A DNA stretch of 12,136 bases, taken from the UHGV virus genome UHGV-1828797; one strand, 5' to 3'. Made by a program: the position numbers and the translations under genes. The DNA comes from a virus. The notes under the pieces are model-generated. The model saw nothing but the letters and a program-made list of their open reading frames with translations. It had not been told where the DNA came from and did no database searches. Shown one piece after another: positions 1 to 9,490 of this stretch. Positions within the stretch are counted from its first letter, which is position 1, and every line of letters begins with the position of its first letter.

Positions 1-438
1 CAGGAAAATATCAAAGAATTTCAATATATCAAAGAATTAAAAGAGAAGGGCTATCAGCTCAAAGCCATAAAAATGATCGTACATAATGGTGATATGGAGC
101 AGAGACTTCCGGAACTTACCGGAAATGAGGCAGATAAGCCTGGTGGCGTAAAAAATCATCAGGTTTATTTTAAAAACCCGGAGACCTTAGCTTTGGCAGA
201 GGCAAAGCAGAGCATATTGGACAATACGGACCGCATGGCGCAATTCACAGAACTCATGACAGATATTGTGGGCAAGGCGATCGCAGCAAACAATGAAAAT
301 TTAAGCAGGACGATCAGCGAAGATGTGGGGGAACAGGTACTCAAGGAGATGAATTATCTGATGCGGGAGCGTGAGGAACTGGAAGAGGAACGTTTCAACC
401 AGACGGTAAGTGAGGTAAGGCAGCTGGCAGGGGAATAA
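1..438 (+). CDS. Hypothetical protein, 5'-partial (3' end of a gene that runs off the window start); MerR-like HTH/wing motif in the first visible residues
   Basis: Frame 1 is open from base 1 with no stop until TAA at 436-438, so the ORF-track start at 73 is only the first in-window Met. Upstream translation QENIKEFQYIKELKEKGYQLKAIKMI resembles the end of a MerR-family HTH (pattern like 'FIKrakelGFsLeEIkell'). The first ~200 nt are clearly more AT-rich than the rest of the window. The C-terminal part is acidic and looks helical. Confidence 0.5.
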   Translation, partial: QENIKEFQYIKELKEKGYQLKAIKMIVHNGDMEQRLPELTGNEADKPGGVKNHQVYFKNPETLALAEAKQSILDNTDRMAQFTELMTDIVGKAIAANNENLSRTISEDVGEQVLKEMNYLMREREELEEERFNQTVSEVRQLAGE

Positions 439-508: not shown

Positions 509-724
509 ATGTATCGAATGGAAAAAATCACGACGGGTATTGCATACGGCGCATCGGGTGGGGGGACCGGATACTGGTTGCTTCAGCTCCTCGATAAAGT
601 CTCCCCATCACAATGGGCGGCCATTGGTGTGCTCGGTAGCCTCATGTTTGGTTTGCTGACGTGGTTAACGAGTCTGTACTTCCAAATCAAAGCGGATCGC
701 CGCAAAGCTGCGCGGGGTGAATGA
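509..724 (+). CDS. S: Class II holin (phage 21 S-type pinholin) with dual-start motif
   Basis: 71 aa with two hydrophobic segments ([21 protein letters not shown] and [23 protein letters not shown]) and a basic C-terminus ([11 protein letters not shown]), as in S21. Met1 and Met4 (M-Y-R-M) would give 71- and 68-aa products. GAGGTGA Shine-Dalgarno 6 nt upstream. The stop overlaps the endolysin start (ATGA). Confidence 0.85.
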
Positions 725-1260
725 TGTCGAACAAAGCAAAGCTCAGTGCAGCAGTGCTGGCGCTAATCGCGTCAGGGGCATCTGCTCCACTCATTTTCGA
801 CCAATTCATCAGCGAGAAAGAAGGCAATGCGCTGGTGGCCGTTGTTGATCCGGGTGGGGTCTGGTCTTTATGTCACGGCGTGACCGTTATCGATGGCAGG
901 CGTGTTGTTAAAGGCATGACGGCCACTGAGGAACAATGCCGGAAGGTTAACGCTATTGAACGCGATAAGGCATTAGCCTGGGTTGATCGCAATATCAAAG
1001 TGCCTCTGACAGAACCGCAGAAGGCCGGGATCGCATCTTTCTGCCCGTACAACATCGGGCCGGGTAAGTGCTTCCCTTCCACGTTCTACAAGCGCATCAA
1101 TGCCGGTGACCGCCACGGGGCATGCGAGGCGATTCGCTGGTGGATTAAGGACGGTGGACGTGATTGCCGCCTGACAAAAGGCCAGAAGAATGGCTGTTAT
1201 GGGCAGGTCGAGCGGCGCGATCAGGAAAGTGCGCTGGCGTGCTGGGGGATAGACCAATGA
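721..1260 (+). CDS. R: SAR endolysin (phage 21 R-type lysozyme with N-terminal signal-anchor-release domain)
   Basis: 179 aa. The N-terminus is a Gly/Ala-rich weakly hydrophobic segment ([20 protein letters not shown]) typical of SAR domains, followed by an E...D...T lysozyme catalytic region ([15 protein letters not shown]...HGVT). It sits immediately after the pinholin with an ATGA overlap. Confidence 0.88.
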
Positions 1261-1358
1261 GCCCAAGCAGCATTTGTTTCATTGTGGCGGGAATACTGAC
1301 GTGTCTCTGTATGTCTGGTTGGGGATGGTTTGTCTTTGTTGGAGTAATCCTCCTATGA
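1257..1358 (+). CDS. Candidate 33-aa single-pass hydrophobic peptide nested between endolysin and Rz (hypothetical)
   Basis: ATG at 1257 overlaps the endolysin stop (ATGA, 1257-1260); the stop TGA at 1356-1358 overlaps the Rz start (ATGA, 1355-1358). GGGGGA at 1244-1249 gives a 7-nt Shine-Dalgarno spacing. Product [33 protein letters not shown] is almost entirely hydrophobic. It fills an otherwise unexplained 94-nt spacer inside the lysis cassette. Confidence 0.35.
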
Positions 1359-1819
1359 GTCGAATTGTTGGAGTTACCTGTGCGGTAACTATCGTGGTAA
1401 TCAGCGCTATGGGTTGGGCCATCAACCACTATCGCGACAACGCCATCACCTACAAAGACCAGCGCGATAAAGCCACAAAGAACCTCCGCCTGGCTAATGC
1501 CACCATCAAAGATATGCAGACCCGCCAGCGTGATGTCGCTGCACTGGATGCCAAATACACGAAGGAATTGTCCGATGCGAAAAAGACCATTAACGATTTG
1601 CGTCGTGATGTCGATTCTGGCGCTAAACGGCTGCGCATCGCCGCAACCTGCCCTGGAGTGCCAAAAGCCACCTCCTCCACCGGCGTGGATGATGCAGGAG
1701 CCCCCGAACTTACTCCAGACGCTCGACGGAATTATTTCGATCACCGGGACGGAATCGCAACCGCTGACAAAATGATTCGCGGCATGCAGGACTACATCAA
1801 AGAGCAGTGTCTTAAGTGA
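1355..1819 (+). CDS. Rz: Rz i-spanin (inner-membrane spanin subunit)
   Basis: N-terminal TM helix ([17 protein letters not shown]) followed by the conserved [27 protein letters not shown] motif and a C-terminal QDYIKEQC, closely matching lambda Rz from memory. Start taken at ATG 1355 (protein MSRIVG...), not the upstream in-frame ATG at 1274. Confidence 0.9.
1575..1775 (+). CDS. Rz1: Rz1 o-spanin (outer-membrane lipoprotein), embedded in the +1 frame of Rz
   Basis: Lies entirely inside Rz in another frame. [20 protein letters not shown] has a signal peptide with a lipobox-like LNGC, followed by the proline-rich PPPPPAW motif characteristic of lambda Rz1. Confidence 0.8.
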
Positions 1820-1837
1820 TTCGTCACCCAAATAACA

Positions 1838-1866
1838 GAGCCTGACTTCGGTCGGGCTTTTTTATT
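1838..1866 (+). terminator. Putative rho-independent terminator after the lysis cassette
   Basis: AGCCTGAC (1839-1846), loop TTCG, GTCGGGCT (1851-1858; 8 bp stem with one G-U pair), then TTTTTTATT, about 20 nt after the Rz stop. Confidence 0.7.
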
Positions 1867-1890
1867 CCCAGAAGAAGCAGGAGAAGAAGC

Positions 1891-2091
1891 ATGTTAACAG
1901 TAAAAGTAATGTCGCCAGGTGGCGGTGAAGAGATTCATTGCGGGTTGAGTGTAGGGTTCAATCCGGGGCAGCAGAGCATCGCGGTATCGGGAATGGACAA
2001 AAATGTATTCCTGAAACCTGGCGAGGTCGCCTACGTGATGAACCAGAACGGGAAGACGGTATCTCGTTACGAGCATAATGACCGCCAGTAG
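1891..2091 (+). CDS. Hypothetical small protein (66 aa), moron region
   Basis: AGGAGA Shine-Dalgarno about 7 nt upstream of the ATG. Gly/Val-rich sequence, predicted soluble. No family recognised. Confidence 0.5.
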   Translation: MLTVKVMSPGGGEEIHCGLSVGFNPGQQSIAVSGMDKNVFLKPGEVAYVMNQNGKTVSRYEHNDRQ

Positions 2092-2175
2092 CCATTCCAA
2101 AGCTCACCTGCTGGTGGGCTTGATAATGGATATCCCCCTGAGCGGATAAATCAAAAATAACCCCTGCAACGGATA

Positions 2176-2580
2176 ATGACGGAGCAACAGATGGCAAAAG
2201 CCAAATGGCACAGACTTCCGGCATTCACCATTCCGCTGTTTCAAAGTGCGCATGTCTACCTCGCAACAACCAGAGAACAGTTTCAGCACGCTGATAAATT
2301 CCTTGGCGGCAGCGGGGATGAGAAGCCATTCAATCTTGGGCTTGCAAGCAACTATGAAAACACTGATACGGGTGAGCGATGCTATCTGATTGGAGTATTC
2401 GATCAGCAGATCGCTACGCTCGTTCATGAGTGCGCCCACGTCTGCTTTTACGTTTGCTCTGATGTCGGCGTGACGACAAGGCCTGAAGATGCCAACGAGA
2501 CGTACTGTTACATGCTGGACAGGATGGTTAATCACTTCCTGCCATTCATTCAGGAGAAACAAGATGTATCACTGGAATAA
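2176..2580 (+). CDS. Hypothetical protein with HExxH motif (putative minimal Zn-metallopeptidase-like), moron region
   Basis: 134 aa containing LVHECAHVCFYV followed about 20 residues later by EDANETYCYML. This HExxH...E(x)AN spacing resembles ImmA/IrrE (COG2856) zincins. The start may instead be ATG 2191 (M6), which has ACGGAG 7 nt upstream. Size and position resemble ybcV-type genes of E. coli cryptic lambdoid prophages, but this is unverified. Confidence 0.6.
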   Translation: MTEQQMAKAKWHRLPAFTIPLFQSAHVYLATTREQFQHADKFLGGSGDEKPFNLGLASNYENTDTGERCYLIGVFDQQIATLVHECAHVCFYVCSDVGVTTRPEDANETYCYMLDRMVNHFLPFIQEKQDVSLE

Positions 2581-2758
2581 TCAATCCCCTTATTGCCAAT
2601 GCCAACGCTGCCCGTGCTGCGGGAAGATTGTTAACCAATTTACTGGCAACAATTTCTTCAAGACTGGTTATGGATATGGTGTTGCGGGTAGCGTTAATTG
2701 CTCTGGGGCTGCTGCTGAAACGACATCAAACACAGGCAAGCAGAAAGGAGCTAAGTAA
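2564..2758 (+). CDS. Hypothetical small Cys-rich protein (64 aa), overlapping the 3' end of the previous ORF
   Basis: ATG 2564 is preceded by AGGAGA (2552-2557) at 6-nt spacing. The N-terminus has a CxCxxCxCC cluster (YCQCQRCPCCGK) and the C-terminus is Gly/Ala/Thr-rich and low-complexity. Overlaps the upstream ORF by 17 nt in another frame. Confidence 0.35.
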   Translation: MYHWNNQSPYCQCQRCPCCGKIVNQFTGNNFFKTGYGYGVAGSVNCSGAAAETTSNTGKQKGAK

Positions 2759-2852
2759 TGGTAATCAAAGTTTGTTCAGGCTCTCAGGGCTTCGACAACC
2801 CATCCAAATTCCGCGATGAATGGGATAAGCAAGCAGAAGGGAAATAATCAAT

Positions 2853-3341
2853 ATGGCAGCACCAAAGGGCAACCGATTTTGGGAGGCCCGCAGTAGTCAT
2901 GGGCGAAATCCTAAATTCGAATCGCCTGAGGCGCTGTGGGCTGCTTGTTGTGAATACTTCGAGTGGGCTGATGATAACCCACTATGGGAGGGTAAGGTAT
3001 TTTCATATCAGGGAGAAATAATTAAGGCTAATGTCCCTAAGATGCGAGCCATGACTATTTCAGGATTGTGTACCTTCCTTGATATCACCAGGCAAACGTG
3101 GGGAACCTTCCGGTCAATGGAAGGTTTTTCTGACGTCACATCACGAGCGGAAGACATCATCTACGACCAGAAATTCTCTGGCGCAGCCGCTGACCTTCTC
3201 AACGCTAACATCATCGCCCGTGATTTGGGCCTCAAAGAGCAGTCGCAAGTTGAAGACGTGACACCTGATAAGGGAGATCGCGATAAGCGGCGCTCTCGTA
3301 TCAAGGAGCTATTCAACCGTGGAACTGGACGCGATTCTTGA
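2853..3341 (+). CDS. terS: Terminase small subunit (P22 gp3-like)
   Basis: 162 aa starting [22 protein letters not shown], recognised as the P22-type small terminase family. It sits immediately upstream of, and overlaps, the large terminase gene. It contains a pac-like sequence (next feature). Confidence 0.85.
3120..3141 (+). other. Candidate pac (packaging initiation) site inside terS
   Basis: GAAGGTTTTTCTGACGTCACAT matches about 16 of 22 positions of the P22 pac site (GAAGATTTATCTGAAGTCGTTA, from memory) and lies at the equivalent position in the gene, about nt 268 of terS. Confidence 0.4.
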
Positions 3342-9272: not shown

Positions 9273-9278
9273 TTTTGG

Positions 9279-9302
9279 TGGGGCTTCGGCCCCATTTTTA
9301 TT
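9279..9302 (+). terminator. Putative rho-independent terminator or attenuator after the coat gene
   Basis: Perfect 6-bp stem TGGGGC / GCCCCA with a TTCG tetraloop (9279-9294), followed by TTTTTATT, 7 nt after the coat stop. Confidence 0.7.
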
Positions 9303-9313
9303 GGGAGAAGACA

Positions 9314-9490
9314 ATGGCACGAACAATGCTCTATAAGCCTGGCAACATGATCACCTGTGGTCAGTTTGCTGTCGATTACATCATTGTTGATGACGAAGAA
9401 GTTAAATCTCACCTGAAAAAAGGCTGGGTAAAAACTCCTGAAGAAACCGCAACGAAGCATAAAGTGGCTAAGGCGGAAGAAGATGGCTAA
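9314..9490 (+). CDS. Hypothetical small protein (58 aa) between coat and gp4-like gene
   Basis: ATG 9314 is preceded by GGGAGAAG Shine-Dalgarno. The stop TAA 9488-9490 overlaps the start of the next gene (ATGGCTAA). The ORF-track version begins at TTG 9275 inside the terminator hairpin, which is unlikely to be the real start. Confidence 0.5.
   Translation: MARTMLYKPGNMITCGQFAVDYIIVDDEEVKSHLKKGWVKTPEETATKHKVAKAEEDG

What the first reader, a model, noticed from the sequence alone, without database searches (positions are those of the whole stretch)
2176..2580. Moron protein with an HExxH...E-x-AN zincin-like motif between lysis and packaging genes
The 134-aa ORF carries LVHECAHV followed about 20 residues later by EDANETYCYML, the spacing and consensus of ImmA/IrrE-type (COG2856) metallopeptidase active sites (HExxH plus a downstream Glu in an E-x-AN-x-F/Y context). 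ImmA/IrrE proteases normally cleave a partner HTH repressor. A stand-alone copy in a late-operon moron slot could be an anti-repressor or anti-defence protease, or it could be a non-catalytic fold sharing the motif. No partner HTH gene is adjacent, which would be unusual.
Basis: partly seen in the sequence, partly recalled or inferred. Interest (0 to 1): 0.58.

Follow-up and report, generated by a model that had tools for sequence, protein, structure and literature searches.

The report
Small phage zinc-protease-like late gene
The ORF is a real gene of a P22-like phage for a very small predicted zinc metalloprotease from a large, uncharacterised phage family; it is not an ImmA/IrrE repressor-cleaving protease, and its substrate is unknown.

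Summary
The ORF at 2176-2580 exists. The likely start is ATG 2191, giving 129 aa. It lies between a pinholin/endolysin/Rz/Rz1 lysis cassette and the gp3 small terminase of a P22-like phage.

HExxH (H84, E85, H88) is real and nearly invariant in 126-135 relatives that are each under 50% identical. The invariant residue is E108, 17-19 residues after the second His, at the start of the next helix. That is a gluzincin-type site.

An AlphaFold2 model (pLDDT 83) has the order of elements of a minimal zincin. No Peptidase_M78 match was found in 165 members. There is no adjacent HTH gene. Family members also occur in virulent Autographiviridae. ImmA/IrrE membership is therefore rejected.

The family is PHROG 1365 (ST64T/L Orf-129; paralogue HkcC of HK620/P22), with about 850 clusters, no Pfam model and no solved relative. 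It is an accessory gene (Sf6 lacks it), read in the late operon, and usually sits next to lysis or terminase genes. In two distant relatives it sits near Tad2-like or Acb2/Tad1 genes.

Best reading: a cytoplasmic late accessory metallopeptidase, possibly counter-defence. The function itself is inferred, not shown.

The parts
2176..2580 (+).
2191..2580 (+). Probable true CDS, 129 aa (about 14.7 kDa, pI about 5.2, no hydrophobic segment). Member of PHROG 1365.
   Evidence: All homologues start at MAK. RefSeq WP_001029634.1 is annotated from this ATG. phrog_1365 E 2.9e-37. pI and hydropathy.
2181..2184 (+). GGAG Shine-Dalgarno, 6 nt upstream of ATG 2191
   Evidence: sequence read
2425..2439 (+). 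Codons of H84-E85-C86-A87-H88 (HExxH), on predicted helix 79-97
   Evidence: H84 and H88 126/126, E85 125/126. Helix from the AF2 model.
2494..2499 (+). Codons of N107-E108. E108 is the predicted third metal ligand, at the start of helix 108-132.
   Evidence: E108 126/126, N107 83/126. Helix.
2485..2487 (+). It is not conserved.
   Evidence: Glu in 4/126, gap in 50/126
1837..1867 (+). Intrinsic terminator (10-bp stem, T run) just after Rz. The accessory block lies downstream of it.
1891..2091 (+). Upstream accessory ORF, 66 aa, phrog_3909, unknown function. It alternates with DUF2560 at this position in relatives.
2564..2758 (+). Small Cys-rich ORF (64 aa, core CxCQRCPCCGK). AGGAG at 2552-2556. 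It overlaps the last 17 nt of the target. Probably a real gene that is rarely annotated; it is not an obligate partner.
509..1819 (+). Lysis cassette: P21-type holin (509-724), lysozyme (721-1260), Rz (1274-1819) with embedded Rz1
2853..3341 (+). gp3-type small terminase subunit; start of the packaging/head module
   Evidence: PF16677 E 8.3e-31; phrog_606

Best explanation
The gene encodes a stand-alone, soluble, roughly 129-aa minimal zincin-type metallopeptidase. H84 and H88 of HExxH, together with E108 on the following helix, would bind a metal ion (presumably zinc), and E85 would act as the general base. It belongs to a large, uncharacterised phage family: PHROG 1365, which includes Orf-129 of ST64T and L, ORF47 of ST104, gp70 of epsilon34, and the paralogue HkcC of HK620/P22.

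It is a dispensable accessory gene, transcribed with the late operon by read-through of the terminator after Rz. It most likely acts in the cytoplasm late in infection by cleaving a specific protein. I consider a host protein, such as an immune or abortive-infection factor, the most likely substrate class.

Shown here: gene reality, family membership, motif conservation, predicted fold order, genomic position, and dispensability within P22-like phages. Inferred: metal binding, hydrolytic activity, late timing, cytoplasmic site, and the substrate class.
For: Family: phrog_1365 E 2.9e-37. HkcC, RSB3 ORF49 and Axy23_047 fall in the same PHROG. HkcC is 35% identical, E 2e-24. There are 848 clusters at 50% identity with E<=1e-3, nearly all single-domain proteins of 105-160 aa.

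Active site: H84, H88 and E108 are invariant and E85 is 125/126 in an alignment with 19% mean column identity. The gap between the second His and the Glu is 17-19 residues in 120/126.

Fold: the AF2 model has pLDDT 82.7 and pTM 0.78, with strands, helix 33-42, strands, helix 79-97 carrying HExxH, and helix 108-132 starting at E108. This is the order that defines the zincin-like metallopeptidase core in PMC5512222. Weak zincin-only similarities recur: SprT-like in 34/126 and 27/39 members, myroilysin E 0.003, and M3, LegP and WD_0702 metalloproteases. Named BFVD neighbours are SprT-like, PolyVal metallopeptidase, Metalloprotease and IrrE.

Accessory status and timing: the gene is always between Rz and the small terminase in 80 IMG/VR loci, whatever the terminase type. 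Phage Sf6 has no member at all. There is a terminator upstream and no promoter. HkcC lies on the late strand between genes 16 and 9.

Cytoplasmic site: no hydrophobic segment (max KD19 1.2) and pI about 5.2. The lysis cassette has a P21-type holin; from general knowledge such holins are pinholins, which do not release folded cytoplasmic proteins.

Counter-defence hint: a distant member directly follows a Tad2-like gene (PF11195, E 2.6e-29), and another lies three small genes after an Acb2/Tad1-hairpin gene (PF24729, E 2e-16). Several Salmonella phages carry two paralogues.
Against: No biochemical or genetic data exist for any member; literature searches found none.

No match to PADLOC, although that library holds defence-system models rather than anti-defence models.

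The counter-defence role rests on two neighbourhoods out of about nine distinct distant contexts. Late expression is not typical of anti-defence genes. The recurrent position beside or inside the terminase gene pair could instead point to a packaging-related role.
Confidence: 0.5

Rival explanations
1. ImmA/IrrE-type (Peptidase_M78, COG2856) anti-repressor protease that cleaves an HTH repressor.
For: HExxH plus a downstream Glu on the next helix, small size, phage-borne. One BFVD neighbour is named 'IrrE protein', but the match is poor (TM 0.33).
Against: No PF06114 match at E<=1 in 165 members. There is no adjacent HTH gene here or in 80 related loci. Members occur in virulent Autographiviridae. 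The gene sits in the late operon, downstream of the lysis genes.
Confidence: 0.04
2. A processing protease for a phage protein, linked to DNA packaging or virion assembly (for example trimming of a terminase, ejection or decoration protein).
For: The gene is always next to the packaging module. In two distant lineages it lies between TerS and TerL, with overlapping stop and start codons. It lies next to Dec in ST64T- and L-type phages. HkcC lies right after ejection-protein gene 16. mEp021-type members carry an acidic linker plus a basic C-terminal tail.
Against: Sf6, a complete P22-like phage, has no member. The gene occurs with at least four unrelated terminase types. Its neighbours are mosaic. 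In L084 and L097 it lies among accessory and anti-defence genes.
Confidence: 0.15
3. A SprT/Wss1/Spartan-like DNA-dependent protease that removes proteins stuck on phage DNA before packaging.
For: The only recurrent Pfam similarity is SprT-like (best E 1e-4). One public annotation says 'SprT-like family protein'. The gene is adjacent to terminase. mEp021-type members have a basic C-terminal tail.
Against: All scores are below the Pfam cut-off and cover only the HExxH helix. The third His of the SprT/Wss1 motif (HExxHx5H, from general knowledge) is absent: position 94 is Leu or Cys. The core is acidic, with pI about 5.2 here and a family median of 6.0. There is no zinc-ribbon or DNA-binding domain.
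Confidence: 0.08
4. A non-hydrolytic HExxH metalloenzyme (such as the alpha-ketoglutarate/Fe HExxH peptide hydroxylases), possibly modifying the small Cys-rich peptide encoded at 2564-2758.
For: The best NCBIfam match is TIGR04267 mod_HExxH (E 0.0024, 17.9 bits), and 18/126 members give weak matches. HExxH proteins are not always hydrolases (PMC12636437). An overlapping small Cys-rich ORF with a good ribosome-binding site is conserved in three divergent forms.
Against: The score is far below the cut-off of 40 bits and covers only 30 residues. The small ORF is absent from most family contexts, and it recombines independently: in L046 it is 89% identical while the zincin is 62%. The protein is much smaller than the 177-position model.
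Confidence: 0.04
5. A non-catalytic protein that merely keeps a zincin-like fold, acting as a binder or structural protein.
For: No activity has been shown, and there is no significant solved structural relative.
Against: All four catalytic-type residues are essentially invariant over about 850 clusters while the rest of the protein diverges to 25-35% identity. Pseudo-enzymes normally lose such residues.
Confidence: 0.05

Closest known systems
PHROG 1365: ST64T/L Orf-129, ST104 ORF47, epsilon34 gp70, HK620/P22 HkcC (all annotated 'unknown')
   Same: Direct sequence family. 57-60% identity to Orf-129 and 35% to HkcC. Same size, same motifs, same late-strand accessory positions.
   Different: Nothing essential. 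The window copy belongs to an E. coli/Citrobacter/Klebsiella subgroup and has orf66 rather than DUF2560 upstream. The family has no assigned function.
Zincin-like metallopeptidase (MPTase) superfamily, gluzincin type, as defined for phage and plasmid polyvalent proteins (Iyer et al. 2017, PMC5512222). Thermolysin- and M1-type gluzincins have a similar HExxH-x18/19-E spacing (general knowledge).
   Same: An N-terminal helix plus a small sheet, then a helix with HExxH, then a helix with the ligand Glu. The Glu is preceded by Asn (NE), as in many gluzincins. One BFVD neighbour is named 'PolyVal metallopeptidase'.
   Different: It is stand-alone and only about 120 aa, not a domain of a giant injected protein. 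No significant sequence or structure match to any curated member.
ImmA/IrrE, Peptidase_M78 (PF06114, COG2856)
   Same: A small HExxH + Glu zincin, common in phages.
   Different: No profile match. The Glu is in a different position relative to 'AN'. The His-Glu gap is shorter. There is no HTH partner. The gene is in the late operon and is also found in virulent phages.
SprT-like / Wss1 / Spartan (PF10263)
   Same: Weak, recurrent similarity over the HExxH helix; small size.
   Different: The third ligand is Glu at +18 to +20, not His at +6. The core is acidic and has no DNA-binding module. Scores are below the cut-off.
Minigluzincins (proabylysin, projannalysin; about 100-aa archaeal HExxH+E proteases). 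Recalled from memory, not tested by name.
   Same: Stand-alone soluble catalytic domain of about 100-130 aa with HExxH and a Glu ligand.
Astacin-like metzincin myroilysin (PDB 5zjk, 5czw, 5gwd)
   Same: Marginal family-profile match (E 0.003) running from the N-terminal 'KWP' strand to the HExxH helix.
   Different: Metzincins use HExxHxxGxxH with a third His and a Met-turn. Both are absent here.

Membership tests
PHROG 1365 (Orf-129/HkcC family) | Significant full-length match to the family profile | tested here: met
   E 2.9e-37, residues 5-130 against profile positions 2-121 of 127. HkcC, RSB3 ORF49 and Axy23_047 hit the same PHROG.
Zincin-like metallopeptidase superfamily (gluzincin type) | HExxH on a helix, conserved across the family | tested here: met
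   H84 and H88 126/126, E85 125/126. Helix 79-97 in the AF2 model.
Zincin-like metallopeptidase superfamily (gluzincin type) | Conserved Glu ligand on the helix that follows the HExxH helix | tested here: met
   E108 126/126, at the first residue of helix 108-132, 17-19 residues after H88.
Zincin-like metallopeptidase superfamily (gluzincin type) | Core fold: small beta-sheet with an N-terminal helix, followed by the two C-terminal helices | tested here: inconclusive
Zincin-like metallopeptidase superfamily (gluzincin type) | His-His-Glu side chains converge on one metal site; zinc binding; peptide hydrolysis | not testable with these tools
   Model coordinates are not returned to the session.
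ImmA/IrrE, Peptidase_M78 (PF06114 / COG2856) | Match to the family profile | tested here: not met
   No PF06114 match at E<=1 for the query or for any of 39 + 126 relatives.
ImmA/IrrE, Peptidase_M78 (PF06114 / COG2856) | Conserved Glu in an E-x-x-AN-x-F context downstream of HExxH | tested here: not met
   The Glu upstream of 'AN' (E104) is present in 4/126 and deleted in 50/126. The conserved Glu follows 'AN'.
ImmA/IrrE, Peptidase_M78 (PF06114 / COG2856) | Adjacent HTH (Xre/ImmR-type) partner gene | tested here: not met
   The neighbours are orf66/phrog_3909, DUF2560, Dec and small terminase. The family is present in virulent Autographiviridae.
SprT-like (PF10263) | Score above the Pfam gathering threshold | tested here: not met
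   12.7 bits against a cut-off of 25.6 for the query. The best E among relatives is 1e-4, and only the HExxH helix is matched.
SprT-like (PF10263) | Third His shortly after HExxH (HExxHx5H; general knowledge) | tested here: not met
   The position six residues after H88 is Leu (68) or Cys (39), and His in only 2/126.
alpha-KG HExxH peptide hydroxylases (TIGR04267) | Score above the NCBIfam cut-off (40 bits) | tested here: not met
   17.9 bits over 30 residues; 18/126 members match weakly.
Moron (autonomous promoter-gene-terminator insert) | Own promoter and terminator flanking the gene | tested here: not met
   No sigma-70-like site on the + strand in 1700-3000. The only strong terminator lies upstream, at 1837-1860. 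This was a consensus scan only.

The most novel reading that the evidence does not exclude
PHROG 1365 could be a previously unrecognised class of minimal, stand-alone phage zincins, made late in infection, that proteolytically disarm host immune or abortive-infection proteins triggered by late phage products (capsid, terminase, portal). That would explain three things: why the genes cluster beside the lysis and terminase genes; why they sit near Tad2- and Acb2/Tad1-type sponge genes in other phages; and why P22-like phages often keep two diverged paralogues (Orf-129 and HkcC).
Probability: 0.2. Interest if true: 0.7.

Novelty: new member of a known kind. Interest (0 to 1): 0.38.

Why it matters
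If the prediction holds, about 850 sequence clusters of 'hypothetical' phage proteins would gain a biochemical class: minimal gluzincin-type metallopeptidase. These include genes in the classical phages P22, HK620, L, ST64T and epsilon34. It would also give a tractable model, since these are easy phages with dispensable genes, for asking what a phage protease made late in infection is for. A protease that removes a host defence protein would be a new mode of counter-defence. At present this is a well-supported family and active-site assignment with an unknown substrate, not a new mechanism.

Tried and rejected
Searches that found nothing useful:
- Sequence and profile searches against PDB sequences: nothing for the query or for A1; only marginal astacin-type hits for the wider profile.
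- The AFDB50 library was not available.
- PADLOC: no hit.
- tblastn of the small Cys-rich ORF against INPHARED: no match.

- Model coordinates are not exposed, so the metal-site geometry could not be measured.

Literature:
- Searches for Orf129, hkcC, DUF2560, SprT-like phage anti-defence, and phage metalloprotease anti-defence found no functional data.
- Two phage accessory-gene screens do not mention a metalloprotease.

Ideas rejected:
- ST64T Orf-134, downstream of Orf-129, as a partner. Its sequence appears from memory to be the phage L Dec decoration protein; I did not run a comparison.
- DUF2560 as an obligate partner. It is absent from the window and is replaced by orf66.
- A periplasmic or cell-wall role. 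There is no signal peptide or TM segment, and the holin is P21-type.

Full report
**What is in the window.** The 12.1-kb window is the late region of a P22-like (Lederbergvirus-type) phage or prophage. The genes, in order, are:
- a P21-type holin (509-724), a lysozyme (721-1260), and Rz (1274-1819) with embedded Rz1;
- a strong intrinsic terminator at 1837-1860;
- a 66-aa ORF of unknown function, phrog_3909 (1891-2091);
- the target ORF (2176-2580);
- a 273-bp stretch holding a small Cys-rich ORF;
- the gp3-type small terminase (2853-3341), the large terminase, the P22 portal, and the scaffold, coat and gp4 genes.

Nearly identical DNA occurs in E. coli prophages. There the gene is annotated as a 129-aa hypothetical protein, WP_001029634.1.

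**Checking the observation.** The ORF and both sequence strings are present as described. The real start is almost certainly ATG 2191. Every homologue begins MAK, RefSeq uses that start, and GGAG lies 6 nt upstream.

HExxH is conserved: in 126 relatives with a mean column identity of 19%, H84 and H88 are invariant and E85 is 125/126. The invariant residue is E108, preceded by Asn in 83/126 and followed by [FY]-C-Y-L. It lies 17-19 residues after H88 in 120/126. So the motif is HExxH-x(17-19)-E, not the ImmA/IrrE arrangement.

**What it is.** The protein matches PHROG 1365, 'unknown function', at E 2.9e-37. It reaches no Pfam or NCBIfam threshold and matches no PADLOC model.

Annotated relatives are Orf-129 of ST64T and L, ORF47 of ST104, gp70 of epsilon34 and gp49 of mEp021. 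A second, paralogous lineage is HkcC, which lies in the 'ant moron' of HK620 and P22. HkcC is 35% identical (E 2e-24) and falls in the same PHROG. The literature describes HkcC only as a gene of unknown function (PMC2629481). Several Salmonella phages carry both paralogues.

An exhaustive HMM search finds 848 clusters at 50% identity with E<=1e-3. Nearly all are single-domain proteins of 105-160 aa.

**Fold.** An AlphaFold2 model built on 39 sequences is confident (pLDDT 82.7, pTM 0.78). Its elements run in this order: strands, helix 33-42, two more strands, helix 79-97 carrying HExxH, and helix 108-132 beginning at E108. This is the arrangement that defines the zincin-like metallopeptidase core, with the Glu ligand on the helix after HExxH (PMC5512222).

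The weak sequence similarities are all to zincins: SprT-like, myroilysin, and M3, LegP and WD_0702. I could not get model coordinates, so the clustering of the three ligands is inferred from helix positions and was not measured.

**Why it is not ImmA/IrrE.**
- None of the 165 members scanned gives any Peptidase_M78 match.
- The M78-style Glu is not conserved.
- There is no HTH neighbour here or in 80 related loci.
- PHROG 1365 members sit at the right end of virulent Autographiviridae genomes, after the maturase and lysin genes (Ralstonia RSB3 ORF49, Achromobacter Axy23_047). Repressor cleavage makes no sense there.

**Genomic context.**
- In 80 IMG/VR loci the gene always lies between Rz and the small terminase, whichever of at least four terminase types follows. 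Its neighbours are interchangeable: DUF2560/Orf-118 on either side, orf66, or the Orf-134 gene, which I take to be Dec.
- In two distant lineages it lies between TerS and TerL, with overlapping stop and start codons.
- In one distant member it directly follows a Tad2-like gene. In another it lies three small genes after an Acb2/Tad1-hairpin gene. Both neighbours score above the Pfam thresholds.
- Phage Sf6, a complete P22-like phage, has no member at all by HMM search of its six-frame translation. The gene is therefore dispensable for P22-type assembly and packaging.
- With a terminator upstream and no promoter-like site, the gene is a read-through passenger of the late operon rather than an autonomous moron.
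- The protein is acidic and soluble. The cassette's P21-type holin argues against export, so a cytoplasmic site of action is most likely.

**Mechanism and rivals.** The best-supported reading is a late-made cytoplasmic minimal gluzincin-type metallopeptidase that cleaves a specific protein. I put the enzyme class at roughly 0.75.

The biological role is open. I favour a host-directed or counter-defence role, at roughly 0.3. The reasons are the gene's accessory nature, its diverged paralogues, its presence in both temperate and virulent phages, and the two anti-defence neighbourhoods.

The rivals are:
- a packaging- or virion-linked processing protease, supported by terminase adjacency and weakened by Sf6 and by the variety of terminase types;
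- a SprT-like DNA-dependent protease, weakened by the missing third His and the acidic core;
- a non-hydrolytic HExxH enzyme (a weak TIGR04267 match; such enzymes are documented in PMC12636437), possibly acting on the neighbouring small peptide, which however is absent from most contexts;
- a non-catalytic fold, which is unlikely given the invariant residues.

**Novelty.** The gene family has been catalogued for over twenty years as 'unknown', and some automated annotation already calls relatives 'SprT-like'. What this analysis adds is:
- the correct ligand assignment;
- the link between Orf-129 and HkcC;
- the breadth of the family;
- the rejection of the ImmA/IrrE assignment;
- the context pattern.

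It is a new, uncurated family within a known kind of enzyme. Interest is moderate.

Noticed in passing
window 2564-2758 (+): Unannotated small ORF, 64 aa: MYHWNNQSPYCQCQRCPCCGK... followed by a Gly/aromatic-rich tail. AGGAG lies 7 nt upstream, and the ORF overlaps the 3' end of the target. It is conserved as an ORF at 89-97% identity in E. coli prophages, at 64% in P0266, and at about 47% in L043 (4634-4822), all sharing the core CxCQRCPCCGK. It is not annotated in RefSeq strain H6, has no Pfam or PHROG family, and has only 6 clusters in the 5.8-billion-protein search. It recombines independently of the zincin: in L046 it is 89% identical while the zincin is 62%.
   Followed up: partly
window 1837-1867 (+): Strong intrinsic terminator (10-bp stem, 5 GC pairs, T7 run) directly after Rz, inside the late operon. 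The accessory genes and the whole packaging/head module lie downstream, so they depend on Q-type antitermination.
   Followed up: partly
window 1891-2091 (+): 66-aa ORF, phrog_3909 (E 8e-37), unknown function. It occupies the slot that DUF2560/Orf-118 occupies in most relatives, and it recurs 98-100% identical upstream of the zincin in several IMG/VR loci with different terminases (L022, L023, L026, L030-L033).
   Followed up: partly
L090 2968-3333 (HK620 hkcC); P22 NC_002371.2 13894-14205: HkcC, in the P22/HK620 'ant moron', is a paralogue of the target family (same PHROG 1365). In the P22 RefSeq record the matching stretch carries no annotated feature. Several Salmonella P22-like phages carry both Orf-129 and HkcC.
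   Followed up: partly
L087 4493-6810; L094 4496-6790: In two distant metagenomic phages the zincin gene is inserted between the small terminase gene (PF03592 in L087; TerS-like PHROG matches in L094) and the large terminase gene (phrog_2), with overlapping stop and start codons. This is an unusual place for an accessory gene.
   Followed up: partly
L084 4729-5570; L097 3877-5286: Distant family members lie directly after a Tad2-like gene (PF11195, with a 4-nt overlap) and three small genes after an Acb2/Tad1-hairpin gene (PF24729). Both neighbours belong to known anti-Thoeris/anti-CBASS sponge families.
   Followed up: partly
L003 3001-3585 (mEp021 gp49); P0116-P0120, P0125, P0128: A subgroup of 173-194 aa adds a long acidic, Ala/Glu-rich linker and a very basic C-terminal tail (e.g. 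KKGKRKPKAKEALVPRVM.FKRG) to the zincin core. This could be a DNA-binding, capsid-targeting or partner-binding tail.
   Followed up: no
window 73-438 (+) and 9275-9490 (+): Two further ORFs, of 121 aa (upstream of the holin) and 71 aa (between the coat and gp4 genes), have no Pfam match.
   Followed up: no
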